This document shows positions 3,701 through 51,806 of a DNA stretch of 64,000 nucleotides, in pieces. The DNA lies in NCBI RefSeq assembly GCF_963676685.1, contig NC_092353.1, positions 18,290,001-18,354,000 on the forward strand, in the 5' to 3' direction. A program made the position numbers and the translations under genes. The notes beneath the pieces were generated by a model. The model saw only the letters and a list, made by a program, of their open reading frames with translations, searched no databases and was not told the DNA's origin. Source of the DNA: Mytilus edulis. Taxonomy: Eukaryota. Each line of letters starts with the position of its first letter. Positions within the stretch are counted from its first letter, which is position 1.

Positions 3701-4633
3701 TTTTTTAAAATACTATATTTCTGCATCGCGGGATGCAGTGATGATACCACCATTGTCTAATATGATGGAGTTAAAAATCAGTAATTCGGATGAATCTCAC
3801 GTGAAATGTTTCATTTAATTTTCACGTAAACTTAACAAAAATCTGAAGGTATTTTTTATGGTTTTAATCAAATTTTAGAACAAAGATATTATTTTAATAA
3901 TTTTATTTCAAATATTTACGTGAATTTAACGTGTACAAAATTCCGATGATTTATGCATGAACTCTTATCATAAGATTCACATGGAACATGTTCACGCAAG
4001 TTTCAAGTATATGCTCGTTTAATGTGAAAATCAGACGATATTAATATTAATTCATATGAGTGAAATGCCATGTGCAGGACGAAATAAAATTATATCTGAT
4101 TCAGTAGAATTTTATATTGCATTACTAGGAACTTTACGACAGTCGACAGGGGAAATGAAAATAAAATATACTCATTCAGATCCCGACACATATTTTTTCT
4201 CTCCATTTCTCTGAGAAGGAATAACGTTATATTCCGTACACCATAACGTCACACGTTTTTGGTCAAATTCTAGGCCTATCAATCAAATTTGAAGCCATTT
4301 ATTTCAAAAACAAGGATGGTGACATATGAGTTTCTATACGTGTATGGATTCACTATGCAATCCTGGATATTATGTTAGTTTTTTGTTTTTCTCCGTATAT
4401 AAGAAAATAGCCATCCATTCGAAAATCTAAAAAGGTAAGCCGAAAAAAAGGCATTTCCCCTATATACCTAAGTAAATTTGTCGCCAAAATTGACGTTTTC
4501 CTATGAAAATCACAAAAAAACAAAAATGGTGACCCCAATTTTTTATTACATATTCCGATGTAACTCGATTCAAAGTACACGTATGCCAAAAATTTTGGAA
4601 ATCGGGAGATATGCCATTCGGTATCGTGTTACC
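717..4633. mobile_element. Non-autonomous DNA transposon, Kolobok-like (copy 1, 3917 bp)
   Basis: Perfect 19-bp TIR GGTAACACGATACCGAATG at 717 and its reverse complement ending at 4633. TTAA on both sides (713-716, 4634-4637). GG termini plus a TTAA TSD fit Kolobok rather than piggyBac. A colinear second copy lies at 34489-38310. No transposase ORF seen. Confidence 0.85.
3256..3342. mobile_element. 87-bp micro-MITE with TA flanks nested in the Kolobok-like element
   Basis: TAACCCGAATAATTCAGTC ... GACTGAATTATTCGGGTTA inverted repeat with TA on both sides. Absent at the equivalent site (~37110-37125) of the second copy. Confidence 0.7.
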
Positions 4634-16053: not shown

Positions 16054-19000
16054 TTATAATTTGTGTACGCTATCTGGTACATTTGTCATATGAGGTGCCG
16101 AAGGATACACAGTATTACACACGTCGTCATTGGGTTGATCATAGTTCTCAGTGTTTGTTTGAGTAGTAGTGTAAGTACTTATTGTACTTGGTGCTTTCAA
16201 ACAAATTATTTCCTTCTGAGGAAGTCTTTGATATCCACTGAAAGTTAAAAGAACAAATTGTCAATTATACAAAACTCCCAAAATTGTCTCATATGTTTCA
16301 TTTGTGTTAGATTTTTTCATTGCTCATGGTATAAAACTATCCATCATAATCTTTTATTTGCTTATTATGCTCACCATAAAAAACGAGCTGCTTATCTTTA
16401 CGGGGAACTTGATCGAGTTCATCATGGTTTGAGATTTGTGTAACTCAATAATAAATTATCTGTAGAAACATATGTCGCGAACTATTATTATTCATTTTTC
16501 CTTTGGTCATTGTGCAGTTTATCAATCTTTGTATCTTTTTATGCTTTGAATTATTAATTGTCAAGTGATTAAATGGTATTTCATGTAAATAACCCGTGGA
16601 ATGAAATATAGAACCGTTTTGCCTCAACTCTCGCCAACTCTTTAACTATTTTCTTTGGTGTATTTTGTTTTAACAACATGTGCAATGAATACGGAAATAC
16701 TTTGTTTTGATTTTAATTTGCAAATACGTCGCACCTGTTTTTGGACAGAAAAACACTATAAGAATCTTGATTTTAGGCTGGTCTCGAATGAGATAATTAA
16801 GAAAGCAGGCTTTCTTTTTTCGATTATTTTCTATCATTTCTCTTTTTCATGGTTGACACCAATAGACCTTAAATTTTCATCAATAAGCCTCACCTTGTTC
16901 TCTTGCATCCGTATGTTATAATCACAGCTAAGGTAATAACAAATACGAGAAACACTGCACCAGACGATACTGCCACTGTGTGCCACAACTTCCATTCGTT
17001 TTGTGCTAGATTTGTATAGAATAATTCGACAAACTAAATTGACAATAATGATAAACAAAAGTTAAGATATATCACCTAATAATTACTCCAATAAAATAAT
17101 TTCTCTCTTATCTTCTCAGCTGTTTTATGACTTATGACTCAGTAAATACTTAGTTGGCTCGAATGCCCCGCATCTACTGTTGCTTTAATAAATTCGAATA
17201 ATCATCTTCAATAAACATTTTTTTCTTCATTCCATCCAATAGACCCAGCTGTTAATTTAGACATATTTTCATGAAGTCAATCATTACAGCTTTTGTTAAG
17301 TAGCAAAATTTGTCATGAAAACATGATGAAACCTATATATCTTTGCATGGTGATGTGAAGTAAATACTACGTACCATGCTGACATGTATCGCCATGAAAA
17401 CATTCCTGACAAAGACATCCGGGCATGTTACCAACAGCTACACATGATCCACCATTCTGACATTCTCGTGAACAAGTAGCTTAAATGTAAAGAATAGAAA
17501 GAATATCGGTCGAGACGATATTTAATATAAAAACTTCAAAGCATAGTACATTTCAATTATTAATGGGGTTTTACTTTCATTTAACACAAAACACACTTCT
17601 TTTAGGGAAAATCGTATGAATTATGGAATACTGAATTTATTTTAAGTAACATTGTTAAAATAATAATAACTCTATAATTTGTTGTTACAAAACTATTGTT
17701 AATCAGTTTGTTTCTTCTGGACATAGCGCATATTTAGAACGAACTCCTTCCTTAAAAACCCTTTCTAAATTATCTCATTCGACACTAGCCTAAAATCAAG
17801 ATTCGGCTTAATATACTAAAATCTGTAACTTAGTTATTCAATCTTAAGTCACTATATCTACATAGATAGTTATATCTTATTTTCAAACATTTCATTATAC
17901 TTACGTACTGTACATTGTCCAGATCCATCTCGTCCCCACCCTAAACAGCATTCTTCTATTTGATGATAACGAATGGCGTATTTTTGTTTAGGAGTGAAAC
18001 ATGTTTGTATTCTGTAATGGTAAATTCAAAATTTAAAGCTTAAACAGTCTCAGTATTTTCAATCTCTTGTCATGTATACTGTGATTGTCCCTTTCAGAGG
18101 TATTGTCATTCGCTTCTTGCTATAACGTTTTTTTTTTTAATTTATTTTCGTTCCTTATAGTTAACTGTACATTTTTAGATTGTTTTTCTCGTTCATGTTG
18201 TAAGGAATTACAATTTGACACGTTGAAATGGCGGTATTTTCAAATTTTAGGGTTTTCGTTTTTTCCTGGCATTTACATCTTATGTGTGTACTTAAAAATT
18301 CCAAAGATCTTTTAGAGTACATACAATCTAACTCTCTTTCATCTTGTAACAGTATTAAAACATTTGACTTTTCTACTCTTTACACTAGTATTCCACATTC
18401 CAAACTAAAAGACAAATTGAAAGGGTTGGTATAGCTTTGCTTCATTAAAAAGAATGGCCAACGTAGATACAAGTATCTTGTTTTAGGGGGGAGGGGATAA
18501 ATCCTACTTTGTAAAGGATCACTGTGATTCAAACAAAAAATTCTCTGAAACTGATATTATCAAGATGCTTGATTTCTTGATTGACAACATATTTGTTACG
18601 TTCGGAGGACGTGTTTTTCAACAGAATGTCGGCATTCCAATGGGAACAAACTGTGCCCCTCTACTTGCCGACTTGTTTCTTTATTATAATGAGGTTAACC
18701 TCATGCAGGAACTTCTTGGGAAGAAAGATAAGAAGTTAGCAATATCCTTTAACTCTACTTTCTGCTATATAGATGATGCTCTTTCACTAAATAATTCAAA
18801 ATTTGGAGACTATGTGGAACGCATCTATCCCATCGAGCTAGAGATAAAGGATACTACAGATACAGTTGAGTCGGCCTCATATCTTGACTTACATCTAGAA
18901 ATTGACAATGAGGGTCGGTTGAAAACAAGACTTTACGACAAAAGAGATGATTTCAGCTTTCCAATTGTCAACTTTCCATTTCTAAGTAGCAACATTCCAG

Positions 19001-22000
19001 CAACACCTGCATACGGGGTATACATCTCCCAATTGATACGATATTCCCGTGCTTGCATTTCCTATCATGATTTTCTTGAGAGAGGGTTGCTGCTCACAAG
19101 GAAGCTATTAAACCAAGAGTTCCAAATTTCCAAATGGTGAAGTTGAAATTACCCCTTCGTAAATTTTACGGACGCCATCACGAGTTGGTTGACCGTTATG
19201 GAATAACCGTTTCACAAAAATATCGGATATGTTCCTTACGTCGTAACTACAATCCCCTTCCCGTTCATGAATTTGACCTACCGAATAAGACTATTTACCG
19301 GATTTGTTATCACATAAGCAACACGACGGATGTCACATGTGGAGCAGGATCTGCTTACCCTTCCGGAGCACCTGAGATCACCCCTAGTTTTTTGATGGAG
19401 TTCGTGTTGTTTATTCTTTAGTTTTCTATGTTGTGTCATGTGTGCTGTTGTTTGTTTGTCTTTTTTCATTTTTTAGCCATGGCGTTGTCAGTTTGTTTAA
19501 GATTTATGAGTTTGACTGTCACTTTGATATCTTTCGTCCCTCTTTTATACGGAGTTTTAATGTCACATCCGTATCAAAGTGAGACACCAAGATAACCCTT
19601 GCGCACATCTTTATCAAACTGAGACAACAATATAAACCTTCCGCCCATCTTTATAATTGGTTTTGCTTTAAACAAATTTAAAAGATCTTCATATCCAAGA
19701 ATTAGATCATGTAATTGTGAAAACTTGGTATTATTAAAGATGCAGTCTTAAAGAAAAATGAAATGGATAAGGTTTCCTAGAATTATCTACAATATTCCAT
19801 TCTCCACACGCATAGATTTTGAGATATTATGTTTACCGATATTTTGTACACCTCCTCCAATCAAGATGCCCACAGCTGGTTGTATATCTCTCCTGACATA
19901 TGAAAGCCTGATTGTACGATGTAAGATAATTCTCAGCTCGCTCTCTTGTACAAACATGCCTGAAAAAGTTTTAAATTGACATATTTGATTCAGAAACTAA
20001 ATGAAAAGGATCGGAGAGCTGGCAAAACATATTATTTGATTGCGACAACTACCTACCAGAGACCAAAGGAAGAGGATGTTATACATTTATTTCCCGTGAA
20101 ACAAATCTTCATATCTCACGAAACTAAGGGAAATTAATGTTTTATTCCACTGCCTTTACTTTTTTTTACTTATGATTTTTAAAATTTACTTAATTGTTTT
20201 CTTATCCAACATACACAATGATAATCAGTACCGATTTAAAGTTAATTATTTATCTATTGTTTTCTACTTGTTTTTAGATTGGAAATAATTTTTTAAACAA
20301 AACGTATCAAAATGTTTTATTCAAACATTAACCGTGGGTAACATCGCACAAGGCAATCCCGACGTTCAGAGGGGAATATGAAGTTTTGTTCGACGTCACG
20401 TAGAATAGTTTCAACCAATCAGATGTTGATTTCGCTATCAAAATCAATAAGTGAGCCATAACCCTCAATTCCACATGATACAAACGTTGTGCTTAATATC
20501 CTTATAACTACATCTATACCTCTGCTGGTGAACGGTAACTCCCCGAGTATACAATCCAACTTTATAACTACATCTATACCTCTGCTGGTGAACGGTAAGT
20601 CCCCGAGTATATAACCCAACTTATAACTACATCCATACCTCTGCTGGTGAATGGTAAGTCCCCGAGTATACAATCCAACTTATAACTACATCTATACCTC
20701 TGCTGGTGAATGGTAAGTCCCCGAGTATACAATCCAACTTATAACTACATCTATACCTCTGCTGGTGAATGGTAAGTCCCCGAGTATATAACCCAACTTA
20801 TAACTACATCCATACCTCTGCTGGTGAATGAAAAGTCCCCAAGTATATAACCCAACTTATAACTACATCCATACCTCTGCTGGTGAATGGTAAGTCCCCG
20901 AGTATATAACCCAACTTATAACTACATCCATACCTCTGCTGGTGAATGAAAAGTCCCCGAGTATATAACCCAACTTATAACTACATCTATACCTCTGCTG
21001 GTGAATGGTAAGTCCCCGAGTATACAATCCAACTTATAACTACATCTTTAACTCTGCTGGTGAATGGTAAGTCCCCGAGTATATAACCCAACTTATAACT
21101 ACATCTATACCTCTGCTGGTGAATGGTAAGTCCCCGAGTATACAATCCAACTTATAACTACATCTATACATCTGCTGGTAAATGGTGAATCCCTGAGTAT
21201 ACAATCCAACTTTATAACTACATCTATACCTCTGCTGGTGAACGGTAAGTCCCCGAGTATAACAATCTAACTTATAACTACATCTATACCTCTGCTGGTG
21301 AACGGTAAGTCCCCGGGTATATAACCAAACTTATAACTACATCTATACCTCTGCTGGTGAATGGTAAGTCCCCGAGTATATAACCCAACTTATAACTACA
21401 TCTATACCTCTGCTGGTGAATGGTAAGTCCCCGAGTATACAATCCAACTTATAACTACATCTATACCTCTGCTGGTGAATGGTGAATCCCTGAGTATACA
21501 ATACAACTTTATAACTACATCTATACCTCTGCTGGTGAACGGTAAGTCCCCGAGTATAACAATCTAACTTATAACTACATCTATACCTCTGCTGGTGAAC
21601 GGTAAGTCCCCGGGTATATAACCAAACTTATAACTACATCTATACCTCTGCTGGTGAATGGTAAGTCCCCGAGTATACAATCCAACTTATAATTACATCT
21701 ATACGTCTGCTGATGAATGGTATTTCCGGGAGTATATAACCCAACTTATAACTACATATATACCTCTGCTGGTGAACGGTAAGTCCCCGAGTATACAATC
21801 CAACTTATAACTACATCTATACCTCTGCTGGTGAACGGTAAGTCCCCGAGTATACAATCCAACTTATAACTACTTCTATACCTCTGCTGGTGAACGGTAA
21901 GTCCCCGAGTATACAATCCAACGTATAACTACATCTTTACCTCTGCTGGTGAACGGTAAGTCCCGATAATACAATCCAACGTATAACTACATCTATACCT

Positions 22001-22904
22001 CTGCTGGTGAACGGTAAGTCCCAGAGTATACAATCCAACTTATAACTACATCTATACCTCTGCTGGTGAACGGTAAGTCCCCGAGTATACAATCCAACTT
22101 ATAACTTCATCTATACCTCTGCTGGTGAACAGTAAGTCCCCGAGTAAACACTCCCACGTATAACTACATCTATAACTCTGCTGGTGAATGGTTAGTCCCC
22201 GAGTATACACTCCAACTTATAACTACATCTTTTCCTCTGCTGGTGAACGGTAAGTCCCCGAGTATACAATCCAACTTATAACTTCATCTATACCTCTGCT
22301 GGTGAACGGTAAGTCCCCGAGTATACACTCCAACTTATAACTACATCTATACCTCTGCTAGTGAACGGTAAGTTCCCGAGTATACAATCCAACTTATAAC
22401 TACATCTATAACTCTGCTGGTGAATGGTAAGTTATTAACTACAACTTAAGTTCGGTCATGATTAAATTGATACGTCATCAATTGATAAATTATGTAATTT
22501 TACTAGAACTATTTTGCCTGTTCTCATTAGGCATGTTAGGTCCTTCGTCCTTAGTTGTTTTATGTGTTTTTTTGCATCTTTACCTTTTGGCTTCCATTGT
22601 TTCTAAAAGCTAAGTTTTTCTAGAAGCGTGTACGTGGAATTGAAATGTATTTGCCACTTGACATTGAACAAACAAAAATAAATCCTACATTTTATTTTGT
22701 ATTTAATAAATACATTTATAAATCAGTACAGTTTTTATCTTTCAGCAGATAATAATTGTATTTACATAGATGCAAACAAAGCAGTTCTAAACAGTACAAT
22801 TTAATAAGAGTAAATTCTTGTACTCACCCCGATAAGCAAGCCAAATGGTACATACAATCCATAACAATAAGTACTAAAAGTTCCAGCTTAATGCATATTT
22901 CCAT
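16054..22904 (-). CDS. Gene E: small type-I membrane protein, signal peptide + EMI domain + single EGF + TM + cytoplasmic tail (235 aa, 6 exons); EMI/EGF receptor-like (MEGF10/Draper/EGFL7-type modules)
   Basis: Exons 22904-22828, 19959-19837, 18011-17905, 17479-17375, 17005-16894, 16237-16054. All GT-AG with matching phases, 708 nt in total. Translation: MEICIKLELLVLIVMDCMYHLACLSG-HVCTRERAENYLTSYNQAFICQERYTTSCGHLDWRRCTKYR-IQTCFTPKQKYAIRYHQIEECCLGWGRDGSGQCTVP-TCSRECQNGGSCVAVGNMPGCLCQECFHGDTCQHA-QNEWKLWHTVAVSSGAVFLVFVITLAVIITYGCKRTS-GYQRLPQK...VYPSAPHMTNVPDSVHKL*. Not represented in the ORF track. Exon 1 is the least certain. Confidence 0.85.
18283..19547 (+). mobile_element. 5'-truncated, decayed Penelope-like retroelement (reverse transcriptase pseudogene) in intron 2 of gene E, antisense
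   Basis: RT motifs IKTFDFSTLYTSIPH, GIPMGTNCAPLLADLFL, CYIDD, LYDKRDDFSFPIVNFPFLSSNIP and YGVYISQLIRY across ORFs 18228-18434, 18565-19140 and 19134-. In-frame stop at ~18432. Frameshifts at the G-run ~18486-18496 and at the TTCCAAAT duplication ~19120-19135. Confidence 0.9.
20501..22440. repeat. Minisatellite, 59-60 bp unit (TTATAACTACATCTATACCTCTGCTGGTGAA[TC]GGTAAGTCCCCGAGTATACAATCCAAC), ~33 copies, in intron 1 of gene E
   Basis: Directly visible, highly homogeneous tandem array with sharp edges. Confidence 0.97.
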
Positions 22905-24820: not shown

Positions 24821-25068
24821 TTTGATCAATTTGGGATGTTATACCCATATCTATTTTTATTAATTTGGGATGCACTTTTTAAATGAAAAAGAGACCAACC
24901 TTGACCATAGAAGCAACAGTTATGAGTTTCTTCACTGGAATTGTCAATTAGAAAATAGATGTAAAAATAGTTGGAATGGTTTAACTATCTTTTGTAAACA
25001 TAATGTGTAGTTAAAGAAGTTTTTGAAGTTATAACAAAGCAGACAGTAGCGTTTAATTAAATATATTC

Positions 25069-28000
25069 TTATAAGTTATTATGACAGCCATGGATTTCCA
25101 TATTCATGTACGGTTTGTAACTCTTATGCCACGTCAAGGTGAAGAATCGGATAAATCTGGTATCTAACGGTTCGGGTGGATTGACTTGGTGAGCACTGCT
25201 AGACGTGGTACCAGAGAAAGTCTGCAAAATACCAAATAACATTAAATGTCTGATTCTATACAAAAAATACGAATGGTATGGATGACATTATGATCAGATT
25301 AGCTAAATGCACTTCAAAATTATTTATATAATAGATATAGGAAGATGTGGTGTGAGTGCCAATGAGACAACTCTCCATACAAATAACAATTTAAAAAGTA
25401 AACCATTATAGGTTAAAGTACGGCCTAATAAAGTTTTATTGTTTTTACATCTACTTTTGTATCATTTCTAGATTTATATTACCATTATGCATATTTATCT
25501 TTTTAAGAAACTCAGTTTCATTACAATACATCCGTAAATTAATACCTATGTTTACAAACGAAAATACCAATCTCTGAAGTTAGAAATTCGTTAAGCGATT
25601 TTTCGTATTGGCGTTCATAAGAATGCTCTTGCCTAAACAATAAAAATCCAGATATAGACTAAATGAGGGACCTTGTTAGAATAGCCGATCATATAAACTG
25701 TATTTTCCAGTAATCTGGATTTGTTACACTACTTTATAAAATTACTTAGGCTTACTAGGAAAATGTAATAAGTTTGACCATTGCCCTTTTATCAAGCCGA
25801 GGGGAGACTGATGCCTGCCTTCTTAGTTTAAAGAGAAGCGAAAGATACAAGAGGGACATTCACACTCACAAGTCGCAAATAAACTGACAATGCCATTGCT
25901 AAAAAACACCAAAAACAAACCAGACAAACAATATTACACAAAACACATATATAAAACTAAAGACTGAGCAACGTGTCCTGCCCACCAAAAACTGGGGGTG
26001 ATCTCAGGTGTTCTGGAAGAATAAGTTTGACGTGTATTCGTGTTACTGAATGAAAAACCCAAACACCTCAATTTAATCACTTACATATACATTTCCGTTG
26101 GAACTCGATGTGTAATTATGGAATATGTTTCCATCAATGCTATGTTGTATGTAGAAACTGCCAGTATTATAAGCTGAAGGGCTGGAACTTCGACCTTTGA
26201 TTTGAAAGTTGTCTATATGAGATACATTTCCTAAAAGTAAAATTATTGTATTCTAAAATATAAATTCTAGAGTAGCCGTTGATAGCCGAGTATTTTTATT
26301 TTGTGTCTATGGTGAACTGCATTAGCAAATTGAAGACTACATTTGAAATATGTACACATGGTCATAATTGTTTGAACTCTAACATGTACAATGAAGCACC
26401 TCATAAAAACATAATTCTGGAATATGCTTGACGTCATAATCTACTGAATATTCGCAGTTACTAACAGCTAGTTCAAAGCCAATTAAAACTAATTAAAAAC
26501 AAATATCCATCTAATACTAAAATTTGATAAATTCATATCAATTTCCATGTTTGATGATACTTCAATTGTACCTACTATGTGCAAAAAAGATATGTTAATG
26601 GTTTTTTTCTCCATATTTTATAATCTACCTTGATGAGTAACTTTTAATTAACTACAACTCACTATCAAAACAATTCCCAATTATCCCACATTTAAACTTC
26701 CCAGTTGTCCCACAAACATATTCCCGATTGTCCCACGTAATTACTTGTACCTGTAATTTCAAAAAGTGGGACAATCGGGAAGACATCGAACTCTTTTTGG
26801 TTTGTACTCCCAGCACTAAAGTATAGTTCATTTATTTATCAAATGAGTGTCGATTTTCTCAGAACAAGGTGAGAGATGAGGAAAAACCAACATTTGGGTA
26901 ACTACATTTAAATACATATATATATATCAACAGTGTAATTTCCAAAAAAAACCCAACAACAAATATATGCACAATAGGCGAAAAAATTAAGAAATAATTG
27001 ATGCCAGCTATACTTTATTGTAGTTTTAACGTGGGTTGCATTATATTCGTGATTATTTTTGCCAGAGCGATAGCGAAATTAATTTAATTTGTAAATGTTC
27101 CGCCGGTTATTGTAGCATTGGTAAATATGTTCATATCTGATAGAGGATTCCTTGATAAAGTTATGCTGACATTCGACTTGGCAGGAGGGGCCCTTTGACA
27201 GAGATTTATTTATACTTGCGGTAGTCCAAATAATTACGACGTCTGGCAAGGCTATTTTAATTTTTTTTTCTGGGACGCCTTCCTTCAACGGCGTCCCAGA
27301 AAAATAAATAAAATAGCCTTGCCAGACGTCATAATTATTTGGACTAAACTTGCGGTAGCTACACCCTGTAAAGTTGATAAAAGGGCACGTACGTCTTTGT
27401 GCATCTGACGATTTCAAATGCTGTATTACATGATGATTAAAATTAATACCGAGAGACAATCTTGTTGCATTTGTAAAATGGATTGGAAACCTTGGTGGTA
27501 TATTGGTAATTACGCCTATTTTTTTTTTTATAGGAGAATGGGGTTCGATTCCCTGCTTGGGTCAATCCATTTTATCATAAATATGAAACAATTTTGTCAT
27601 TTCAGCTGTACAACAGTTATAATTCACCTATACTTTATTTTATATTTTATCGTCAGATCATATGTTTCAATGAAATTATTATATACATGCCTTTTAACAA
27701 GATAGATGAAACGTGTTTTTCAGTGGGAGGGGTTTTGAAGTTAGAACAGCCAACATGAACGTTGCGGTATCTAGGTCAAATATAATGTATGTCAATTTCG
27801 AATAGTAGCACATTGTTGTCATTGTAAAAGTATTAGTAACAAAATATGTATCATATTTTAGTGTTTGAAAGTGTCCCAAGTTAATGAAATACATTAAATG
27901 CGTATACCAATTTAATAAAATTCATTTTTCTGCCGTGGTCAATATACGCATGTGTAAACTAATTTTATTGGATAATAAAGTACGGTCAATAAAGTATGAT

Positions 28001-31000
28001 TTCTTTACAAAGCTAAAGAAGCATGTCATATTAGAATAAGTGAATAATTCATCATCTACATTTCTTAGCTTAATTTGACAAAATTGAGCCAAACTGGCTG
28101 CTAAAAACGAATTATTATTTCGCTATTTCACTTTCATAAATGTTTGGGAAAAAAACAAGAATGTGTCCTTAGTACACGGATGCCCCATCCGCACTATCAT
28201 TTTCTATGTTCAGTGGACCATGAAAACTCTAATTTGGCATTAAAAATAGAATGATCATATCATAGGGATTATGTGTACTAAGTTTCAAGTTGCGTAGACT
28301 TCAACTTTATCAAAAATTACCTCGACCAAAACTTTACCCTGAAGCAGGACAGACGGATAAACGAATGAACGGACGGACGAACAGACGAACGGACGCACAA
28401 ACCAGAAAACATAATGGCCATACATGGGGCATATAATCATAGTTCAGATTTTTAATATAACTTGTAGCTAGTGCACCTTTTATCAACACTGTGATGCAAA
28501 TACACAATTATTAATCATGGTTAGAAACAGACTTTAAACGCGATAGCACATCGTCATTTGTACGGATATGTTGTTTACCGTGCCCGGAAATTTAGAAACG
28601 ATCCTGGTAAACGTATCGATCCTTTAAATAATTTTTTTTAAAAAGGTAACCAATTCAACAATGTAATTAGATCTTTGAATATTGTTTATCTTTTTATTGG
28701 TATAAATATTATTTTTTTTATCAGTAAACTAAAACCAAACTAAATATTATTCTTATATGCATATGCACTTTCATGGATCTACAATCTGCAGTTATCTGTA
28801 TCTTGGTATTGTGCACGGTCATGTTTTCTTCTGACTGTTTTGACGTATTTACACTAAATCAGTTTGATGTTGGATGTAAACTGATTGATAATTTAGTTTT
28901 AGATACATGATTTTTTAATAAGTTGTTTTTGGTTTTGAATCTTCTGTCAGTAACTGTCAGTACTATCATATCTGTACTTACTGTATTATTGTTGTTGGGA
29001 TGTACAAGTACTCGGTCACGTCCACCCTGTTTATGTTAGATGTATTTCTATTTGTATCCATCTGATGAGTTAGCTTCCATTACCTGATTTTTATAGGTTG
29101 TTCTCATGTTGTGCTATTACTGTCCCAAGTTAAAAGGAAGTTTGGGAGCCCACTTACATGTTTAACCCCACCGTATTCTGTATGTATGTATAAAACAAAG
29201 ATGTGGTGTATTGCCGATGAGACAGCTCTTCACAAGAGTCCAACAGTAAAAGAGTGTTTGTCCCAAGTCAGGAGCCTATGGTTCGGTTGCTATCATCTGT
29301 ACTTTGACCTTTAGTTGTTAATTTCTGTGGCATTTGGTCTTTTTGGTAGTAGAGTTGTCTCATTGGCATTGATCCACCACATTCTCAAATGACAAAGATA
29401 GCAAGTAATGATAGATCACATTATGGCCTAAAACTCATTTGCAAATGGCTTTACTCAATAGAAGTTAAACTATTGTCTAGTGTACCTTGTGAATATTGAT
29501 ATACAACCTCGTCCTATTGCATATGCAATGAATGATTAGAAATTATATCTTCAAACCAAAGAGGCAATTTCAGATTCGTGGTGGTACTAACATAAAATGC
29601 ATAACAATTGTTTCTTTCTATATATTTTACCAACCTAAATCTACTTGTAAATAAGACGTTGAATCCATTCCGTACCATCCACCTGCATTCCATCTTGCAT
29701 CTTTCGCCGAATACGTACTGTACATATTGTATCCTGTTAAACTGGCATCGGGTATAGCTTTGGCGTTTGTTGGTCCAATTAGACTGTTACTGCGACAGTC
29801 TTTTTATGGAGACAATTGGTTAAAATGATAAATTGTATATTAATTAAGCTATATTTGAAATGTTTTTGTTTTTATCTCTTTGAAAATTATTGTTTAAAAT
29901 TGAAAGCTTATATTTGCTAATTTGCCTGTTTTCTTGCTTTTAAGTTCATGGCTCTTTGCGAGCTATTGTTTGCTTTAAAGTTCATCTGGGTCTTTTTGAG
30001 CTATTGCAATTACTTAAAGTCCGTCCTCCGAAGTCGTCGTAAACGTTTACAAAAATTATCTCCTCTAAAACCACTTAGGTCAAGGAATAATAATTTCCTA
30101 CTTCCTTTTGGTCATTTAACCAATCTGTTACCTATTTGATAGTGAAAAACAAACAAACAATGGCGTTTCATATAGCGTAACGCTTTTTGTGATGTTTTGT
30201 GGTACATCTTTCACATAGAACACCACTTTAAATTATGTATAGCGTAAACACGAAATAGGTGATCCTATTATCTTTTAACATCATTGAACGTACATTTACG
30301 TAATGGATTTGAAATTGGAGATTTCATGACTTTTAGATAAATTTAGGAACAGTTTTTGTAGATTTTATGTGCTTTCTTTACAAATGATATGAAGCTATTT
30401 TGATATTTAAGATAATACGTAAGATAAATGTATTTTATATTTGTTTTTCAGTAAAAGTTCTACGAGCTTAAGCTTTACCAAAATCTGTGACATAGTTATT
30501 TACCGTAACTTATCCAATTTTAACTAAATTCCAGCTACATGATTTTAAGATACTTAAAATACTTTTTTGTTTCTGCCATCAAACAAACAAGGCTGCCATG
30601 ACTAAAATAAACTAGAAGGTTAAATCAATTTAAATTGTCTTATTAAAAAAAACCAAGCTTTTGTAGAAATTATGACAGGGCGAAAATGGTCAGAATGCAT
30701 GAACTACCTCCTTTCCTTGATCAGATCACTCCTTTTAGGAGTTATTGCCTATAAATAGCATGTTTTGAATAGAAAAGTTTTTAAGCCTTGACCTATTATC
30801 TTGGAAACTGTTTTGTATAGATAGAAACTGTAAAATGAAAAGTTGGAGCAATAGAAGATCTTCAAAATTGCCTATATGACCGACACCTCTTGATATAATA
30901 AAGGAGCTATTGCCCTTAAATGATGATTTTTCATTAGTTTATGAGTTTGTCTTTTGTTTTGAATAGTTGATAAGAGAATGTCAATCCAGTCTGTTGAGAG

Positions 31001-34000
31001 TCTCATAATGAATCTAATTGTGTTTGGTTTTTTTTATTTGAAAGAGTGAGACATTGTTGGCCTATTATTATTTTATTATTTTGATACGTACCAATTTCAC
31101 ATCTAAGACCACCATATGGGTTGGGACAGTAACACTTGTATCCCGTAGTTTCATCTAAACAAACGCCTTGATGGACACAGGGTTTCTTTGTGCAATATAT
31201 TATTCCTAAGTAAGAAAGAATAAAATGTCAAGATATGGTTGTTTTTTATTTGTTATTTAATGTACTTATATCAGGAATCAAAGTTCGATCAGTCTGTTTT
31301 CAAAAAAGCATATTTTGGAAAGCATGTCTTGGAAAAAATGAAGTAGTTCAGAACAAAAATGCACCGAAAAATGAAATATGCTTACCACGGGTAACAATTT
31401 TGAATACACTATCAGCAAAATGACCATGTATATCTGTAGCTCTAATTGTTATTGTGTAAGTGGCGTCAGAATCCGGAATCAGTCCATGTATTCGACCGGA
31501 ATCAGGTTCTAGTTTTACCCCAGGTGGTAACATTCCGGCTACAATAGCATACACAATCGGTTGTCCTTCCGGATCCTACAACGACATAATGTTAACTAAA
31601 CTCACATTAATATATAGTTTTCTTATGAGACAACACAATTTTTTTTAATCTGATACATAATTTTGTACTTTGGAATTTAATGGTTCTTTAGGTAATTTTA
31701 TTGGAGTGCAAAAGCGTGGACCGAAGCACATTTTTTATGTAGCCCGGAAAAATCTATAAGTTTTCGACCTGACAATTCTAATAATAACATTTATATGCTA
31801 TGATAATGAATTTATGAGAGAAAATCAAGTTTTAAAATTTCATTTGTTCTCCTGTGCAGTGTTATCACGATGTCATGATAATCACTTATGCTCCGTTTAA
31901 TAAGATTTTCAAATAGATATAAGAAGATGTGGTATTTATTGCCAATGAGACAACTCTCCATCCAAATCACAATTTGTAAAAGAAAAACAATTAAACGCTA
32001 AAGTACGGTATTGAATACAAAGCACTAGCTCACACCGAACAGCAAGCTATAATAAAGGGTCCCACAATGACTAGTGTTAAACCAATGAAACTGGAAAACC
32101 AACAGTCTAATCTATATACAAACGAGAAACTTTTAAGAACAACATCAACAAACGACAACTACTGAACATCAGATTCCAAACTTAGAACAGGTGCAAACAA
32201 ATGCACCGGGGTTAAACGTTTTAATAGGTAACATTCTTCACCCTTACCCAGCCAATAGTATAATATAGGAAGACACACTATAAAATGTCAATTGAAATGG
32301 CTGAACTCAATCAAAAGGCATAGTAACACAAGTGCACATACATTGAACGGAAACATTTGATCTATGAGACAATATAAATACAAAAACAAATTAAATAAGT
32401 TTTGAATAAATAAAGACAACAGTAGTATACCGCTGTGAGATGTTGAATAATTTCAGAAAGTCAACCATAAAGGCTCGAATATATGTCTACAGATTAATGA
32501 TCTTTAAAAGTGTAAAACATGCCGCCATGTAGTTTCAGAGGATACGATTTTTAAAATTGACGTACTGCTTCTGGCTTTAATTCTTTTATCGGATCAGAAC
32601 CAAATGTCAAACATTTGAATGAGACCTTTTATACAATTCTATTTTTTATTTTGCATGCATTGCCTATTTATTGGTTAAATGTTTTAGCCTTTCAATGACA
32701 CAGTCTTCAGTGTTCCTATAATATATGATTGAAAATAAGAGTTGTAACACATACCATTTAAAAAATGCATTTACATAATTTATACCTTAGCTATGACGTT
32801 TACATCTATTTTGTCTCCTGCGTGAAATTCTCCAATATATCCAAACGTAGAATGTTCTTCCCAGATAGGAGGTTGACTCAGAATCAGCTGAAATGAATTG
32901 AAATCAATTTGGGCCAATAATGAGAGCTTGGTATAGGGTATAACCAACTGCTCGCATCGTTTTCACACCTCTGTCTGACCCACAATTGATTTTTTTCCAT
33001 TTGTTCACTCATATTTGCTTTTTGTTTCTCAGTAAACACACAAGCCTAATCTTGCAAAAATAAATGTATTTGTTTGTGTTACACAATTATTAAAATGCAA
33101 CCAACTTCACAATACTTCGTTATTATATTAAAATTTTGTCTTTGGCAATTCATAATTTTACTATAACAATTGCCAAAGACAAAATTTTAATATAACAATT
33201 GTCAAAGACAAAATTGTAATATAACACTTTCAAAAAACCAAAATGTGTTCTTGCTTATTTTTTATACAACCAAACACTTCAAAAAAATACATTTAAAATA
33301 TAGCTAATATTTTAATTGTATATTGTTAGTTTTTTTAACGTTTTATTTGTTTATGTTTAAAGTATCAAACTAAGGGGTAACAAAACTTGATGTTCGTATC
33401 TGACAAACGTGCAATGTATCGGCAGTTGTGAGTGGTCATTCTCTTATCATTTGAGTTGTCTAGCTTTCCCCCTTGAGGTAAGTTCAGCTGTACAGTTTAC
33501 TGGCATTTAAATAAGTATTCGTCTTTTTTCTAGTAGAGGAAGACAATTAGGATGTTCTTTCTCCATCATTCCTTTACAAGTTATAACTCAGTCAAAGGTG
33601 ACCTAAGATGCATTTGGCCATTATTTGAAGTTCCTTTTTATATAGCTCTGTAACTGTTTCGGTCTTTATGCATGCTTGTCTTTCAAATATTCAATATTTA
33701 GATGGATTCATGACAAAATTGTGTTTTGGTGATGGTGATGTGTTTGTAGATCTTACTTTACTGAACATTCTTGCTACTTACAATTTTCTCTATCTATAAT
33801 AAACTTGGCCCTTTAGTTACAGAGGAAAATATTTTGTGAAAAATTTACATAATTTACCAAATATTAATGAAAACTGTTAAAAACTGACTTTAAAGGGCAA
33901 TAACTCCTTAAGGGGTCAACTGACCATTTTGGTCATGTTGACTTATTTGTTGATCTTACTTCAGGGCAGATAAAGATTGACTTGATAAATAATTTAACCC

Positions 34001-37000
34001 CTCGTCAGATTTGCTCTAAATGCTTTGGTTTCAGAGAAAAAAGCCAAAATCTATATTTTATCCCTATGTTTTATTTTTAGCCATGGCAGCCATCTTGATT
34101 GGTGGGCTTGGTCACCGCACATATTTATTAAACTAAATACCCTAATAATGAGTGTGGCTAAGTGTGCTTAAATTTGGCCCAGTAGTTTCAGAGGAGAAGA
34201 TTTGTGTAAAAGATTACAAAAATTTACGAAAAATTGGTAAAAAATAACTATAAAGGGCAATAACTCCTTAAGGGGTCAATTGACCATTTTGGTCATGTTG
34301 ACTTATTTGTAGATCTAACTTTGCTAAACATTATTGCTGTTTATAGTTTATCTCTATCTATAACAATATTCAAGATAATAACCAAAAACGGCAAAATTTC
34401 CTTGAAATTACCAATTCAGGGGCAGCAACCCAACAACCGGTTATCCGATTCATCTGAAAATGTTCAGGGCAGATAGATCTCGACTTAAGGTAACACGATA
34501 CCGAATGACGTTACGCCACGAGTTACCGTTCCTGACGTTATCGAATAACGTTCACACAGACAAGCCAATGTAGCAGGTTTTCACAAAGTGATTAAATGAT
34601 AAAAAAGAAATATTTTTGATTACTATGTGACATTTTTAACGGTAACTTTTTCTAGATGCAGAGTGCCGAGAGTTTTGATGCAATATATAACGGTTAACTT
34701 ATTTGCTTTATCGTTTTCCGGCAATTCTACTACTCATCGTTAATCTTGTATTAAAAATGTATTACATTACTTTTAAATATTCTGTTTCTTTAATATTTAA
34801 GCATCTGAAAGATTTATCTATATATGTTCTTATGCATAATAGACTGAGTTTTATCACTTTATTTTATTCTTGGTTTATTTTTGCAATAAATACTTATTCA
34901 TGATGCACGCCGTATCCCCATCAAAATTCTGTTTTGAAAATAGAAATACAATCTATAGAAACTTAGTATGATGTGTAATAAACACTGGCAATTGTACATC
35001 TATTAATTCTTGTTATAAAAATGGTCGTTTAAAACACCGCTCGATCAAAATGGAAAAAGGAAATTTATTTGGATGAGAATACGGATAGAATTAGGCGAGA
35101 AAAACACAATACAAGCAGACTTTGAAACTCATACAGAAAATAGTTTGTTAATATGGAATGCAAAGAAATGGTTTAACATGGTAATTTTGCCTAATGACTT
35201 TCTCTGTGTTCCAGTATAAACAGTCTCTGAAATTCATTGGTTGTACAGAGCAAATCCGATATAGTTTCGGAAACATTTTAAAAATAAAGTGCTAGATTTG
35301 TAGTCCTATAGACAGTTGATAGTCGGGACCGGCTCTAATCAGACTGGTTCCGTTACAAAATTTTCTCTCGAAAAAACGACTGACTAATTATTATTCAAAC
35401 GGTAGAAAGAGACTGAAATAGCTAGATCTTGAAATCATTTAGATTTTATATTCGTGTTAATTTACGCTTGCATGGGTATTCGGTGGTAGTGTGTTTTTCA
35501 GTTTGTGTGATTAGAGATGGAAATAATTATATATAATGTACATGTACAAGTTCGGAGACAAAACGACTGGAAGAGAATTAACATTATAGTTGCCCTTTTA
35601 GGCCCTGAGGGGCATATTGCTCACATACTAGGCGTCGGGAAAAGCCTGAGTTTTTAGAACAAGCATGCAGCTTTCATGTAGATCTATATACATGTAAAAA
35701 AGAACTGTATGTATTTCTTTGTGTGGATAAATATACTATATATATGTTCATTGTTATATAAAATGTATTTGTACTAGCTTTAGAAACACGATGCAAAGCG
35801 AGACTCGCCGAGTTTTCCACTTGTTTCGTAGTGAGTACAAACACGCTTTATATTTCTGACAATGTACATAATTTTTACATTTTGTTTATATCCTACAATT
35901 TACACCCCAAGGGTGACTAGAGATGGTCACTTGGTCTTATTTCGACCGGCAGTAAAATGCTTTCAAAGTGGGGCGTCCATTTGGCTGTGCGGGTTGTATT
36001 GTCTATTGTTAACTTGTTCTCGTCCTGAACATGCATAAAATATTTGCCACTGGACGTTAATCAACCAGCAATCAATCCTACAATTTACAACCATCACTTG
36101 AAACTTTAGTTGTTAAAATTTAGATTCAAAGAAATCAACAAAGTTTGCGAACATTTACGCACAAAGAATTATCTACGTTACCGCTTGCTCATTATGGAAG
36201 CGGGGCAACATGAGACTTTATTTGTAAACGTACAAATACAAAGAAAAATATATGGAATATGTTATATGTACAACAGTTGGCTGTTAGTATGATAAACGGA
36301 GATATAGGATATGCAATTAATAAGAAATCAACATCTGGACATTTAACGACACCAAAACCAAAGACATCAAGCAAATTGTGACTAATGCTTATTGGACGAG
36401 TATCTTTTTATTTCTAATTTGTAGTTTTAGTAAACGTTGGGCTCTAAATTGGAGAGTTTTGATAAGTTTATGGAGTATAATTATCACAGTAACATTTCAG
36501 TCTCTTAGTACATATTTCTTTAAGTCTTAAAGTCTCTTAGTACATATTTGTTTAAGTCTTAAAACTTTTGTTCTTCTGGAGAAAATTCAAACAAATTGAA
36601 TATTGAAATAAGGAGGTGCGGTAAAATTGCCAATTAATCAACTTTCCCCCAAAGAAAAAATGACTGAAATGTTAGCTTGCTCACATTGCTACTTCATTTT
36701 AGATCTCCATATTACCTTTCCGTTATATGAACTGCATATTCAAAAATATGTTTTGTCACCAAAATCCTAATAGAGCACATATATCATCATATAGTTTCAC
36801 CCATGTCCGTTCGTAGTCTTTTTGCTTCAGGTTTAAATTATGTACCTGGTGTTACTACTCATATTAAAGGTGCGCATATCGTCTGGGTTTTCTTTATTTT
36901 ATGTTCAGGAAAGGTTGCTGGATTATGCATTTTAATAAAATATAAAAGGCACGCAGAGTACAGACTCCGCCTTACATCTCCAACATGTGGAATTTCAAGC

Positions 37001-40000
37001 TGGAACTTTTATATTTCGCAGTTATTTTTACTTTAAAGAATACATATATGATCTCAATATTTGTTTTGTAAATAATTTTCCACAAATGACAGACTGTTGA
37101 ACTTCGTAAAATTTTGCAGTTTGCAATGTTTGTCCGACTTGCTGAGCAACCAACTCACACATTTACACCACGCAGAGTACATTATACTAATGTACGTAGC
37201 AAGTCAAGAATATAAGTTTTGAATTTTTCTTTGAGTTTGTTATTTCACTTTTTAGAATGTGTATTTTTTCAGGATCATTATTTCCACAACTAGCAGAATG
37301 TTAAACCTTTTTTTGACTGGTGCATCAAATGTGTCCTTTATAAACAGCTGTTTTCAAAATTGTAATGTATCGTCCCGAACATGCATGAACTATTTGCCAC
37401 TGAACGTTGAACGACCATCAAAAACCGCGCAACTGTTAACTGAATCAAATTTTTATACTCTATTTCTGCGTGGATGAAGCAATGATACCACCGTTGTCTT
37501 AAATGATGGAGTTAAAAACTCAGTAATTCAAACTAATTAAATTTTGGAATAAAGATATTATTTGAATAATCTTATTGTAAAAATTTACCTGAATTTAACG
37601 TGTTCCAAATTCCGGTGATTTATTTATGAATTATTATCATTAGATTCACGTGGAACCAAACCAACCAGTTCAAGCAAGTTTCAGGTATATGAGCTCGTTT
37701 GGTGTGAAAATCAGACGAGATTAATGGTAATTCATGTGAGTGAAATTTCCATGTGCAGGACGAAATAAATTATATCAGTAGAATTTTATATTGCATTACT
37801 AGGAAATTTACGAAACCCGACATGAGAAATGAAAATAAAAAAAAAATCATTCAGATCCCGACACATATTTTGTTTTCCATATCTCTGAGTAGTAGGAATA
37901 ACGTTACATTCTGTATTCAATAACGTCACATGTTTTCGGTCAAATTCTAAGGGTACCAATCAACTTTGAAGCCATTTATCTCAAAAACAAGGATGGTGAC
38001 ATATGATTTTCTATACGTGTATGGATTCAGCTTGCAATCCTGGATATAACGTTAGTTTTTTGTTGTTCTCCGTATATAAGAACATAGGCATTCATTGGAA
38101 AATCTATAAAGGTAAGCCGAAAAATAGGCATTTCCCCTATATACCTATGTAAATTTGTTGTCAAAATTGACGTTTTCCTATGAAAATACCAAGAAAACAA
38201 AAATGGTGACCCCCATTTTTTATTACATATTCCGATGTAACTCGATTCAAAGAACACGTGTGCCAAAAAGTTTGGAAATCGGGAGATATGCCATTCGGTA
38301 TCGTGTTACCTTAATAAACAATTCAACGCCGTATCAGATTTGCTCTGAATGCTTTGGTTTCAGAGTTATAAGCCAAAATCTACATTTTACCCCAATGTTC
38401 TATTTTTAGCCATGACAGCCATCTTGGTTGGTTGGCCGGGTCACTGGTCACATTTTTAAACTAGATACCCTAATGATGATTGTGGCCAAGTTTGGTTAAG
38501 ATTAGCCCAGTAGTTTCAGAGGAAAATTTTTTGTAAAAGTTAACGACGACGGACGACGACAGACGATGGACGCCAAGTGATGAGAAAAGCTCACTTGGTC
38601 CTTTGGACCAGGTGAGTTAAAAAAGCTCCTTGTAAGCATGCCATTTATAAAGTTTTAATTTTTTAACGGTATTGTTTTGTTGTGCCCACTGGGTTGATGC
38701 CACTGCTGGAGGAGATTTATTTCCCCAACAGTATTACACGCCCAGTAGTCAGCACATCGATATGTTCATAATTATAAATTAACTGTTAACAAAACTTTGA
38801 ATTTTTGAAAAGACGAAGGCTCTTCTACCTCAGGAATAGATCACCTTAGCTGTATTTGGTAAAACTTTTAGGAATTTTGGTCCTCATTGCTGTTCAACGT
38901 CGTACTTTATTTTGCCTTTTAAACATGTTTTGATTCTAGTGTCAATGATGAGTCTTATGAAGACGAAACGCGCGTCTGGCGTAAATAAAAAAATTTAATC
39001 CTGGTATCTATGATGAGTTTATTTGTCTCCATTCATACCGACATCCAAGTTAGCAGTTTCGTTAATGGTTGTCTTTATTGAAACTCGGATAGCTTGCCTT
39101 TAAATGATTTAGTTTTGAATACATATAGCCTTTGAAATGACCTGTAAGCCCATTCATAACTTGTTTAAACTTGGTCTAACAATCTGTTTTCTGTTGATGG
39201 CCTTTTGTTATCCGGAACCTTACTGACAATGCAAAATACAATAATGATATATTTCTTGAATTTCTTAAATAAGTACAGTACACTGCATTGACGTAAAAAT
39301 TACAATCCAACGATATACCTGTATTATATAATTTAAGTCTTCATTATCAAAGATGACTTTGCCTGTTTCATTGTATCCAATCTTTATATCTCCATTATTA
39401 CTCTACAATTAATAAAATAAATAAACGACAGATTCTTTAAATCTCTACATACATCTTCTGAGTATATACAGATGTAAAAGTAAACAGTCTGTAATCTATA
39501 ACGTATTTCTCTCATTCCCGTCTAATCAAACAAGACGGTAGTGTATATAATATGATAGACTTTAACAATTATTGTTTTGTTTGTAGTTGTGTATTATTAT
39601 ACCGATATTTTATGTGCCCTTTCTGTACTCAAGTTTATTGTACACCTTTGCCTTGCCATATTTCACTAATCAAAATAAAAGCTGATAGGGCCTAGAGATC
39701 TTATACATATAAACATGAACACATACATTGTAATTGTCTACATAATGGTCTACTTAGCCGTTCTTTTCATCTGTACATGTCTTTTGAACATTTCGTGTTG
39801 TCCATGTTGTTGTCTCTTTGGCGAAATCGAAATTGAATTTAAACGTTTATAGACCTATTACAATTTATAGGGTTATAAGAGAAAAGTCCTTCTTTGCCAG
39901 TTTTAAGACATAGAGTACATTGCATATACAAATAAAATGTAACATAAACATTTACCTTCATAGTAAAATCACCAGAGGTAGCAGCATGAACTAAAACATG

Positions 40001-40902
40001 AGGTGGAGTTACTAGCATTGGACTGAAAAGTATAAAGTTATTATTCCTTATATTCCATATTAAGGAAAAGGGCAATTGTCACTATATACATGTAGAAAAA
40101 AATATATAGTTTTCTCGTTTGAATTGTTTTACATTTGTCATTTTAAAGCTGAGTATACGGTTTAGGTTTTACTCATTGTCGAAGGCCCTACGGTGACTTT
40201 TGGTTGTTAATTTCTGTGTCATTTGGTTTCATGTGGAGAGTAGCCTCATTGGTAATCATACCACATCTTATTATTTATATATATATATCCTGTTCATTAT
40301 ACAGAAAAAAATAACACAAGTTTGGATGTGATGCACTTTACACGTGTTCATTAAATGACGAATTTTTGTTAGATCATTGACGTGCATATAGGCCTCGCTT
40401 ATTGCAATACCATAAAGAACGGAATTAAAATGTACAATGTAAAGATATAAAAAAATAAAATTGGCGACTCTTTCAAAAAACATAATTATTACAATAAACT
40501 TGACTTGACGGTTAATTGAACTGAATTTTTTTCACAAAATAGAGCTGAAGGATATCAAAGAAATATTCAATCTCATGCATGCAAGTCGAAATCCAACTGA
40601 CAATGTCATGACCAAAAATGAAATGCAAAAGACGACTAAATTACAGACCAGTATACAAAACATAACATATAAAACTTAAGGCTGAGCAACACAAACATAA
40701 TCAAAAACCAGGGGTATTTTTATTTATGTGGAAGATTGTTTGTAAAATGAGCCGCCTTTATTAAAAGGGGCAAATAATGCAATCCAGATTACTGGCTACA
40801 ACTTTAAATATTATAAGTAACTTACTCAAAATTAGTTTGTGATGAAATAATGGAAACAAGAGAAAATCCAAACAGAACAACAAGCGCCATCTTGGCAGCC
40901 AT
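25069..40902 (-). CDS. Paralog A: secreted protein, cubilin-NTD-like segment + He_PIG-like Ig domain + EGF + F5/8 type C domain (365 aa, 9 exons)
   Basis: Exons 40902-40826 (MAAKMALVVLFGFSLVSIISSQTNF), 40022-39956, 39402-39319 (SNNGDIKIGYNETGKVIFDNEDLNYIIQ), 32887-32786 (LILSQPPIWEEHSTFGYIGEF..), 31575-31386 (DPEGQPIVYAIVAGMLPPGVKLEPDSGRIHG..), 31205-31092 (EGF CTKKPCVHQGVCLDETTGYKCYCPNPYGGLRC), 29799-29635 (CRSN..IPDASLTG..GWYG..YLQVDLG), 26230-26085, 25221-25069 (..DTRFIRF..MNMEIHGCHNNL*). All GT-AG with consistent phases, 1098 nt. Exon sizes 67/102/190 are identical to the paralogs. Confidence 0.88.
27222..27346. mobile_element. 125-bp foldback MITE with TAG..CTA termini and ~9-bp TSD (AcademH-/MuDR-/hAT-like), intron 7 of paralog A
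   Basis: Near-perfect ~57-bp arms TAGTCCAAATAATTACGACGTCTGGCAAGGCTATTTTA..CTGGGACGCC / GGCGTCCCAG..TAAAATAGCCTTGCCAGACGTCATAATTATTTGGACTA with a 10-nt loop. Flanks are TACTTGCGG (27213-27221) and AACTTGCGG (27347-27355). Confidence 0.8.
28155..28432 (+). mobile_element. HINE/DINE-1-like (Helentron-derived) non-autonomous repeat
   Basis: AACAAGAATGTG start after an A-run, internal (GACG/GGAC)n microsatellite and short 3' palindrome (GGCCATACATGGGGC), as typical of bivalve DINE-like repeats. Confidence 0.5.
33575..38620 (+). mobile_element. HINE/Helentron-like repeat with internal tandem subunits, split by the Kolobok-like insertion (parts ~33575-34488 and 38311-38620), intron 3 of paralog A
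   Basis: Internal duplicated block TAAAGGGCAATAACTCCTTAAGGGGTCAA at ~33890 and ~34250. The sequence resumes after 38314 in register with the 33961-34200 subunit. (GAC)n microsatellite and terminal hairpin GCTCACTTGGTCCTTTGGACCAGGTGAGT at 38589-38617. Confidence 0.65.
34489..38310. mobile_element. Non-autonomous DNA transposon, Kolobok-like (copy 2, 3822 bp), in intron 3 of paralog A
   Basis: Same 19-bp TIRs, TTAA TSD at 34485-34488 and 38311-38314. Colinear with 717-4633 but with many substitutions and indels. Confidence 0.85.
38685..39025 (+). mobile_element. Single retrozyme-like monomer (same family as 12945-13400)
   Basis: Reverse-complement homology to 12945-13400 (GATGCCACTGCTGG, CCCAGTAGTCAGCAC, AATCCTGGTA) plus a hammerhead motif near the 3' end. 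Confidence 0.7.
38937..38982 (+). ncRNA. Minimal type I hammerhead ribozyme motif, probably inactive (C3->A)
   Basis: TGTCA-aTGATGA-GTCT-TATGA-AGAC-GAA-AC-GCGC-GT-C-TGGCG: core UGAUGA and GAAA, stem II GUCU/AGAC, palindromic stem III ACGCGCGU, GUC cleavage triplet, stem I UGUCA/UGGCG. Confidence 0.7.

Positions 40903-51773: not shown

Positions 51774-51806
<33 letters not shown>

What the first reader, a model, noticed from the sequence alone, without database searches (positions are those of the whole stretch)
16054..22904. Hidden minimal EMI-EGF-TM receptor with YxxL and PSAP tail directly downstream of the cluster
Seen: a six-exon gene entirely missed by the ORF track. It has an EMI domain ending in CCxGW, only one EGF, a TM helix, and a ~64-aa tail with membrane-proximal YQRL and distal YPSAP. 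Established: EMI+EGF ectodomains occur in CED-1/Draper/MEGF10 engulfment receptors (many EGFs) and in secreted EGFL7/8. YQRL is a classic YxxPhi AP-2 sorting signal and P(S/T)AP binds the TSG101 UEV domain (ESCRT-I). Inference: an unusually short endocytic or phagocytic receptor. It starts ~2.2 kb after paralog A's stop on the same strand, so it might be the membrane partner of the anchor-less secreted proteins. That link is speculative.
Basis: partly seen in the sequence, partly recalled or inferred. Interest (0 to 1): 0.7.

Follow-up and report, generated by a model that had tools for sequence, protein, structure and literature searches.

The report
Small bivalve receptor with ESCRT-hook tail
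A spliced mussel gene, with counterparts in oysters, scallop and zebra mussel, encodes a small predicted surface protein whose outer EMI domain likely grips a ligand and whose tail keeps just one shared motif, PSAP, which likely hands it to the cell's ESCRT vesicle-sorting machinery; its proposed tie to the neighbouring secreted proteins is untested.

Summary
The gene is real. Six minus-strand exons (22904 to 16054, all GT-AG) give 235 aa: signal peptide, EMI, one EGF, TM, about 66-aa tail. Four of five joints appear in contigs of two RNA(?) runs, with no extra EGF exon. It is not hidden: it equals RefSeq XP_071136678.1, an uncharacterized M. edulis protein, letter for letter. Orthologs with the same layout occur in Mytilus, oysters, scallop and Dreissena. 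The EMI is 64-75% identical with invariant cysteine spacing. Tails do not align between orders, yet PSAP sits 4-12 residues from the end in 6 of 6 lineage representatives (shuffle chance 0.06-0.4% each). YQRL-type YxxPhi is in only 2 of 6. NPxY and ITAM, the engulfment signals of Draper/MEGF10, are in 0 of 19 records. Best reading: an EMI-ligand-binding membrane protein likely sorted by TSG101/ESCRT-I into multivesicular bodies or extracellular vesicles, not a signalling phagocytic receptor. The link to the five-gene secreted cluster rests on adjacency and shared presence/absence in four runs; synteny and binding could not be tested. A modest new variant of a known receptor class.

The parts
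22828..22904 (-). exon 1, coding part: predicted signal peptide (aa 1-25); transcribed sequence reaches at least 23053
19837..19959 (-). exon 2: first half of the EMI domain (aa 26-66), phase 2-2
19848..19874 (-). C55-C63 loop, inferred hairpin tip; C55 G56 L58 D59 W60 R61 R62 invariant
17905..18011 (-). exon 3: second half of EMI with CCLGW (aa 67-102)
17375..17479 (-). exon 4: the single EGF (phase 1-1; the EGF is absent from Dreissena isoform X2); Cys129 codon at 17400-17402 is Gly in the other Mytilus records
16894..17005 (-). exon 5: linker and predicted TM helix (about aa 147-169)
16054..16237 (-). exon 6: cytoplasmic tail and stop; transcribed sequence reaches at least 15995 (X1) and 15928 (X9)
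16222..16233 (-). YQRL (YxxPhi); a like motif in scallop, none in full-length oyster or Dreissena tails
16093..16104 (-). PSAP, the only tail motif shared by all four bivalve lineages seen; putative TSG101-UEV site
25069..40890 (-). neighbour, paralog A of the secreted cluster (signal peptide, N-terminal module, He_PIG Ig, EGF, F5/8C); 5' end read by eye; context only, no functional link shown

Best explanation
This is a single-copy, spliced gene, conserved across bivalves, for a small predicted type I membrane protein whose EMI domain likely binds an outside ligand and whose conserved tail PSAP likely recruits TSG101 (ESCRT-I), which would send the protein and its cargo into multivesicular bodies for breakdown or out in extracellular vesicles. 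Shown: gene structure, four splice joints, orthologs, EMI conservation, PSAP conservation, absence of NPxY/ITAM, a mussel TSG101 with the pocket residues. Inferred: (1) the EMI is a long two-stranded hairpin pinned by a ladder of disulfides (C29-C89, C47-C71, C55-C63 are symmetric about one point; C88-C100 closes the base), with the invariant CGxLDWRRC loop and a net charge of +3 to +5 as the ligand face; (2) the ligand may be anionic (phosphatidylserine, polyanion) or a cell-surface protein; (3) the EGF is a dispensable spacer; (4) in mussel and scallop GYxRL may add AP-2 uptake, which oysters and Dreissena lack.
For: Model equals XP_071136678.1, 0 differences. Joints in X1 and X9. Single copy: the six best of 10 genome matches are its own exons, the other four are weak EGF-region hits at E 0.003-0.009. 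EMI 64-75% identical, EGF 44-53%, tail 18-26% against five non-Mytilus representatives. EMI Cys spacing identical in 16 of 16 records that hold the whole EMI, of 19 examined. PSAP in 17 of 19 records, the two misses being X2 isoforms with other C-termini; with PSAP masked, tails of different orders give z from -1.4 to 1.6. Dreissena X2 lacks the EGF but keeps EMI, TM and PSAP. Mussel TSG101 exons align to human UEV at E 6e-23, 6e-10 and 1e-8 and keep Y63, Y68, I70, M95, P139, V141, F142, S143 (pocket residues from passages of PMC11670305). Precedent for a type I protein sorted by its own P(S/T)AP: E-cadherin (PMC9511404, abstract and Discussion).
Against: No binding, localisation or knock-down data. 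PSAP could bind another proline-motif reader; native TSG101 sites are weak (Kd about 200-300 uM for HRS, PMC11670305 passage). The AlphaFold model is poor over the EMI (pLDDT under 50 at 24-73 and 76-84, pTM 0.25), so the hairpin and disulfides rest on cysteine symmetry alone. EMI score of the window protein is under Pfam's cut-off. The sample is four independent lineages. No exon reads in the two raw RNA runs of the related organism B (6% and 18% of each run read), so tissue and level are unknown.
Confidence: 0.5

Rival explanations
1. An EMI-dependent cell-adhesion molecule like Drosophila NimA or PEAR1; PSAP only sets its turnover at the surface.
For: NimA (EMI, one NIM, two EGF, TM) is the shortest Nimrod, shows no phagocytic role and needs its EMI for cell aggregation (PMC13076899 passages). 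The mussel ectodomain is shorter still and lacks NPxY/ITAM. Compatible with the best explanation at the tail.
Against: No expression or localisation data pointing to junctions; no sequence-level link to NimA was found (searches returned no named arthropod protein).
Confidence: 0.25
2. A phagocytic or tethering receptor for dying cells or microbes on hemocytes (SIMU/Draper-like).
For: Atlas nearest clusters are MEGF10/MEGF11/Draper at 0.88-0.89 and, for the EMI alone, a STAB2 fragment at 0.84; all under 0.9, leads only. SIMU's EMI-NIM2 part is needed for phosphatidylserine binding (PMC6516643 passages). Basic EMI.
Against: NPxY and ITAM, which Draper and MEGF10 use and of which CED-1 has NPxY plus a YxxL (PMC8092387 passages), are in 0 of 19 records. 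YxxL in 2 of 6 lineage representatives. It could only tether, not signal by the known route.
Confidence: 0.15
3. Membrane anchor and uptake partner for the adjacent secreted Ig-EGF-F5/8C proteins.
For: All 5 genome matches to the cluster's He_PIG exon lie at this locus; paralog A ends 2.16 kb upstream on the same strand; A-like transcripts (about 91-94% alike) are in X1 and X9, which hold the receptor, and both genes are blank in X21 and X24.
Against: Four runs only, two of them found through this stretch, and the two blanks are of another organism label and only partly read. A's contig ends in its own 3' region at 24905 and the receptor's starts separately at 23053. Adjacency is weak evidence in animals (own knowledge). 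The paralogs' N-terminus recalls the cubilin N-terminal module that docks on amnionless (recalled; a profile of one exon found no cubilin in the PDB), and the genome has an amnionless-like gene on another contig, a rival anchor.
Confidence: 0.08

Closest known systems
Drosophila NimA (Draper-type Nimrod)
   Same: Short type I protein with an N-terminal EMI, few EGF-type repeats, TM and an unstructured tail (PMC13076899 passages).
   Different: One EGF and no NIM repeat seen here; an extra invariant Cys pair in the EMI (extra relative to the recalled six-cysteine pattern); tail's shared feature is PSAP, whereas NimA's tail has conserved tyrosines; orthology not shown.
CED-1 / Draper / MEGF10 / MEGF11 / PEAR1
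   Same: EMI then EGF then TM; automatic names of some orthologs say MEGF10/11; Atlas neighbours.
   Different: One EGF against up to 15 in Draper; no NPxY, no ITAM.
EGFL7 / EGFL8 / EGFEM1
   Same: EMI plus few EGF; Atlas EGFL7 cluster at 0.77 for the EMI; two Saccostrea orthologs are auto-named EGFEM1.
   Different: EGFL7/8 are secreted (own knowledge); this protein has a TM and a PSAP tail.
E-cadherin late-domain sorting; HRS and ARRDC1 P(S/T)AP adaptors
   Same: P(S/T)AP read by the TSG101 UEV domain (PMC9511404 abstract and Discussion; PMC8402826 passages).
   Different: Unrelated proteins; binding is shown there and only inferred here.

Membership tests
EMI-domain proteins (Pfam PF07546) | profile match over the curated cut-off | tested here: inconclusive
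   Window protein 22.1 bits against 25; 2 of 7 proteins scanned pass (27.0, 26.5), all 7 match at E under 3e-4 across nearly the whole profile.
EMI-domain proteins (Pfam PF07546) | N-terminal cysteine pattern ending in CCxGW | tested here: met
   16 of 16 records with a whole EMI, of 19 examined.
CED-1/Draper/MEGF10 engulfment receptors | EMI, EGF, single TM order | tested here: met
CED-1/Draper/MEGF10 engulfment receptors | long EGF array | tested here: not met
   One EGF; exon 3-4-5 joints are direct in X1 and X9; no EGF-like frame in the introns.
CED-1/Draper/MEGF10 engulfment receptors | cytoplasmic NPxY and/or ITAM | tested here: not met
   0 of 19 records; definition from PMC8092387 passages.
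CED-1/Draper/MEGF10 engulfment receptors | drives engulfment | not testable with these tools
   needs cell assay
NimA-type short Nimrod | NIM repeat after the EMI | tested here: inconclusive
   Only an ordinary six-Cys EGF is seen; no NIM-specific profile was run.
TSG101-binding late-domain cargo | conserved cytoplasmic P(S/T)AP | tested here: met
   6 of 6 lineage representatives, shuffle chance 0.0006-0.0037 for the last 16 aa.
TSG101-binding late-domain cargo | host TSG101 with intact PTAP pocket | tested here: met
TSG101-binding late-domain cargo | direct binding and motif-dependent sorting | not testable with these tools
   needs binding and mutant assays
AP-2 YxxPhi cargo | conserved YxxPhi in the tail | tested here: not met
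   2 of 6 lineage representatives; 5 of 19 records. May still work in Mytilus.

The most novel reading that the evidence does not exclude
A bivalve-wide, stripped-down EMI receptor that has traded Draper-type tyrosine signalling for a virus-like late domain, so that it buds itself through TSG101 into extracellular vesicles displaying a disulfide-ladder EMI hairpin, and in Mytilus loads the neighbouring secreted Ig-EGF-F5/8C proteins onto those vesicles.
Probability: 0.07. Interest if true: 0.7.

Novelty: new variant of a known kind. Interest (0 to 1): 0.32.

Why it matters
EMI domains are poorly understood, and this is about the smallest membrane-bound setting for one, with an isoform that is EMI-TM-tail only. 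A tail whose one conserved feature is a TSG101 site suggests ubiquitin-independent ESCRT sorting of a surface protein, reported for few host type I proteins (E-cadherin, PMC9511404). It gives a compact system to test EMI ligands and a candidate marker of bivalve extracellular vesicles. It is not a new pathway, and the gene is already in RefSeq.

Tried and rejected
Wrong frame: and protein 1 used exon 2 in the wrong reading frame; their protein results are void and were redone. This cost one of three homolog searches, so none was left for the cluster paralogs, and synteny by gene identifiers could not be checked. No RNA holder was listed as such by the run search; the small-share rows probably owe much to the repeat in intron 2, and only X1, X9, X21, X24 were laid. 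AlphaFold model too weak in the EMI; Foldseek gave 0 matches at E under 0.001, only EGF-level rows; PDB sequence search gave only EGF matches. Ectodomain homodimer job: no verdict, score 0.00. Pfam EMI search of the genome rang nowhere, controls included, so it says nothing. Cubilin likeness of the paralogs' exon 3: no cubilin among 18 PDB rows. Pfam MLANA match to TM plus tail (E 8e-4, under cut-off) set aside as compositional. Earlier-findings look-ups returned nothing. Literature: 0 papers hold any of six gene or protein identifiers; EMI+bivalve+EGF gave one irrelevant paper; searches listed nothing on this gene by title or abstract start. Supplements were not searched and may list it. A read-through transcript joining paralog A to the TM exons is possible by phase but was not seen; the two stretches were laid apart, so it is largely untested.

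Full report
Observation. Six-frame scanning placed all pieces on the minus strand. Exon boundaries were read from the sequence and give a 708-nt frame over six exons, all introns GT-AG, phases 2,2,1,1,2, coding 235 aa: signal peptide, cysteine-rich domain ending CCLGW, one EGF, a hydrophobic helix at about 147-169, and a tail with YQRL (177) and PSAP (220). No EGF-like open frame lies in the introns. Contigs from two runs of different studies (X1, X9; RNA status guessed by the tool) show four joints exactly at the modelled places, and one covers exon 1. The exon 1/2 joint was not tested. Two raw RNA runs of a related organism label, read to 6% and 18%, had no depth on the exons. The spliced protein is identical to RefSeq XP_071136678.1, an uncharacterized Mytilus edulis protein, so the gene is annotated though unstudied: none of six identifiers appears in the searchable papers.

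Relatives. After correcting a frame slip, exon 2 found 9 proteins among 10 candidates, the full HMMER scan found 7 and the profile search 14 among 1720 candidates of 37-454 aa. Named hits are all bivalves: three Mytilus species, Crassostrea/Magallana, Saccostrea, Mizuhopecten and Dreissena. Three unnamed ENA fragments may come from other taxa. These searches need shared words or used a 41-aa query, so the range beyond bivalves is open. In the genome the gene is single copy; the nearest EMI-like exon (60% over 25 aa) belongs to a different, much larger gene on contig C13.

Conservation. Against five non-Mytilus representatives the EMI is 64-75% identical, the EGF 44-53%, linker plus TM 16-31% and the tail 18-26%. 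The EMI has the same length and cysteine spacing in 16 of 16 records that hold it whole, of 19 examined. Positions 29+89, 47+71 and 55+63 all sum to 118, which fits a long hairpin with a ladder of cross-strand disulfides and the invariant CGxLDWRRC loop at its tip; this is inference, as the AlphaFold model is unreliable there. Dreissena has one isoform with and one without the EGF, so the EGF looks dispensable. The window allele has Cys at 129 where other Mytilus records have Gly.

Tail motifs. PSAP lies 4-12 residues from the C-terminus in 6 of 6 lineage representatives, covering four independent lineages; shuffles put it in the last 16 residues 0.06-0.37% of the time, and with PSAP masked the tails of different orders do not align (z -1.4 to 1.6). 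Over 19 records PSAP is in 17; the misses are two X2 isoforms with other C-termini. YxxPhi is in 2 of 6 representatives (mussel GYQRL, scallop GYRRL), and 59% of shuffles of the mussel tail hold one. NPxY and ITAM are in 0 of 19. The genome holds TSG101-like genes; exons of one align with human UEV and keep Y63, Y68, I70, M95, P139, V141, F142 and S143, the pocket named in passages of PMC11670305.

Mechanism. Most likely the EMI binds an outside ligand and PSAP recruits ESCRT-I, sorting the protein into multivesicular bodies or vesicles (0.5). E-cadherin is a precedent for a type I protein sorted by its own late domain (PMC9511404, abstract and Discussion read); HRS and ARRDC1 use the same motif (PMC8402826 passages). 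The closest known architecture is NimA, which does adhesion through its EMI and not phagocytosis (PMC13076899 passages); this is the main rival (0.25) and overlaps with the best reading. A Draper-like engulfment role lacks its signalling motifs (PMC8092387 passages); a SIMU-like tether is possible (PMC6516643 passages) (0.15).

The cluster. Four paralogs lie in the window and a fifth just beyond it; paralog B is 355 aa with signal peptide, an N-terminal module, He_PIG Ig, EGF and F5/8C, and no TM. All 5 genome matches to its Ig exon are here. A-like transcripts occur in X1 and X9 and not in X21 or X24, like the receptor, but four runs, two picked through this stretch, cannot show co-expression. 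Synteny and binding could not be tested. The paralogs' N-terminus recalls cubilin's amnionless-binding module (recalled, not confirmed), and an amnionless-like gene exists elsewhere in the genome. The partner idea stays at 0.08.

Verdict. Real and well supported as a gene; already annotated; a new variant of EMI-EGF-TM receptors marked by a minimal ectodomain and a conserved TSG101-type motif in place of NPxY/ITAM. Interest 0.32.

Noticed in passing
window 25069-63400 and G000:C10 about 18356200-18362400: Five-gene cluster of secreted proteins (signal peptide, N-terminal module, He_PIG Ig, EGF, F5/8C): A (-), B (+, 42415-47241, 355 aa), C (-), D (-), E (+, beyond the window). A and B are head to head about 1.5 kb apart. 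The N-terminal module recalls cubilin's amnionless-binding start (recalled; not confirmed).
   Followed up: partly
window 46097-46098: Paralog B uses a GC-AG intron in my model.
   Followed up: no
window 51340-52074: No EGF exon was found for paralog C between its Ig and F5/8C exons.
   Followed up: no
window 18487-19421: Reverse-transcriptase-like fragment in intron 2 of the receptor, a high-copy repeat in RNA runs; type not tested. A like copy lies about 10 kb left of the window.
   Followed up: no
window 20500-22430 and 7500-9300: Two long tandem arrays: about 59-bp units in intron 1 of the receptor, and about 38-40-bp units upstream in the window (read by eye).
   Followed up: no
window 715-4636 and 34487-38313: Two diverged copies of a 3.8-3.9 kb element with inverted ends, one inside an intron of paralog A; likely a DNA transposon (read by eye).
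   Followed up: no
G000:C10 50003382, 50829892, 50885665 and C2028: Three TSG101-like UEV exon copies on C10 plus one on a small contig; one looks diverged in the pocket region.
   Followed up: partly
G000:C13:38755047-38755121: EMI-like exon with the same SCGxxxWRRC tip in a large gene with EGF-like and other exons.
   Followed up: partly
window 19931-20098: An X9 contig runs 139 nt into intron 1 ahead of exon 2: retained intron or another acceptor.
   Followed up: no
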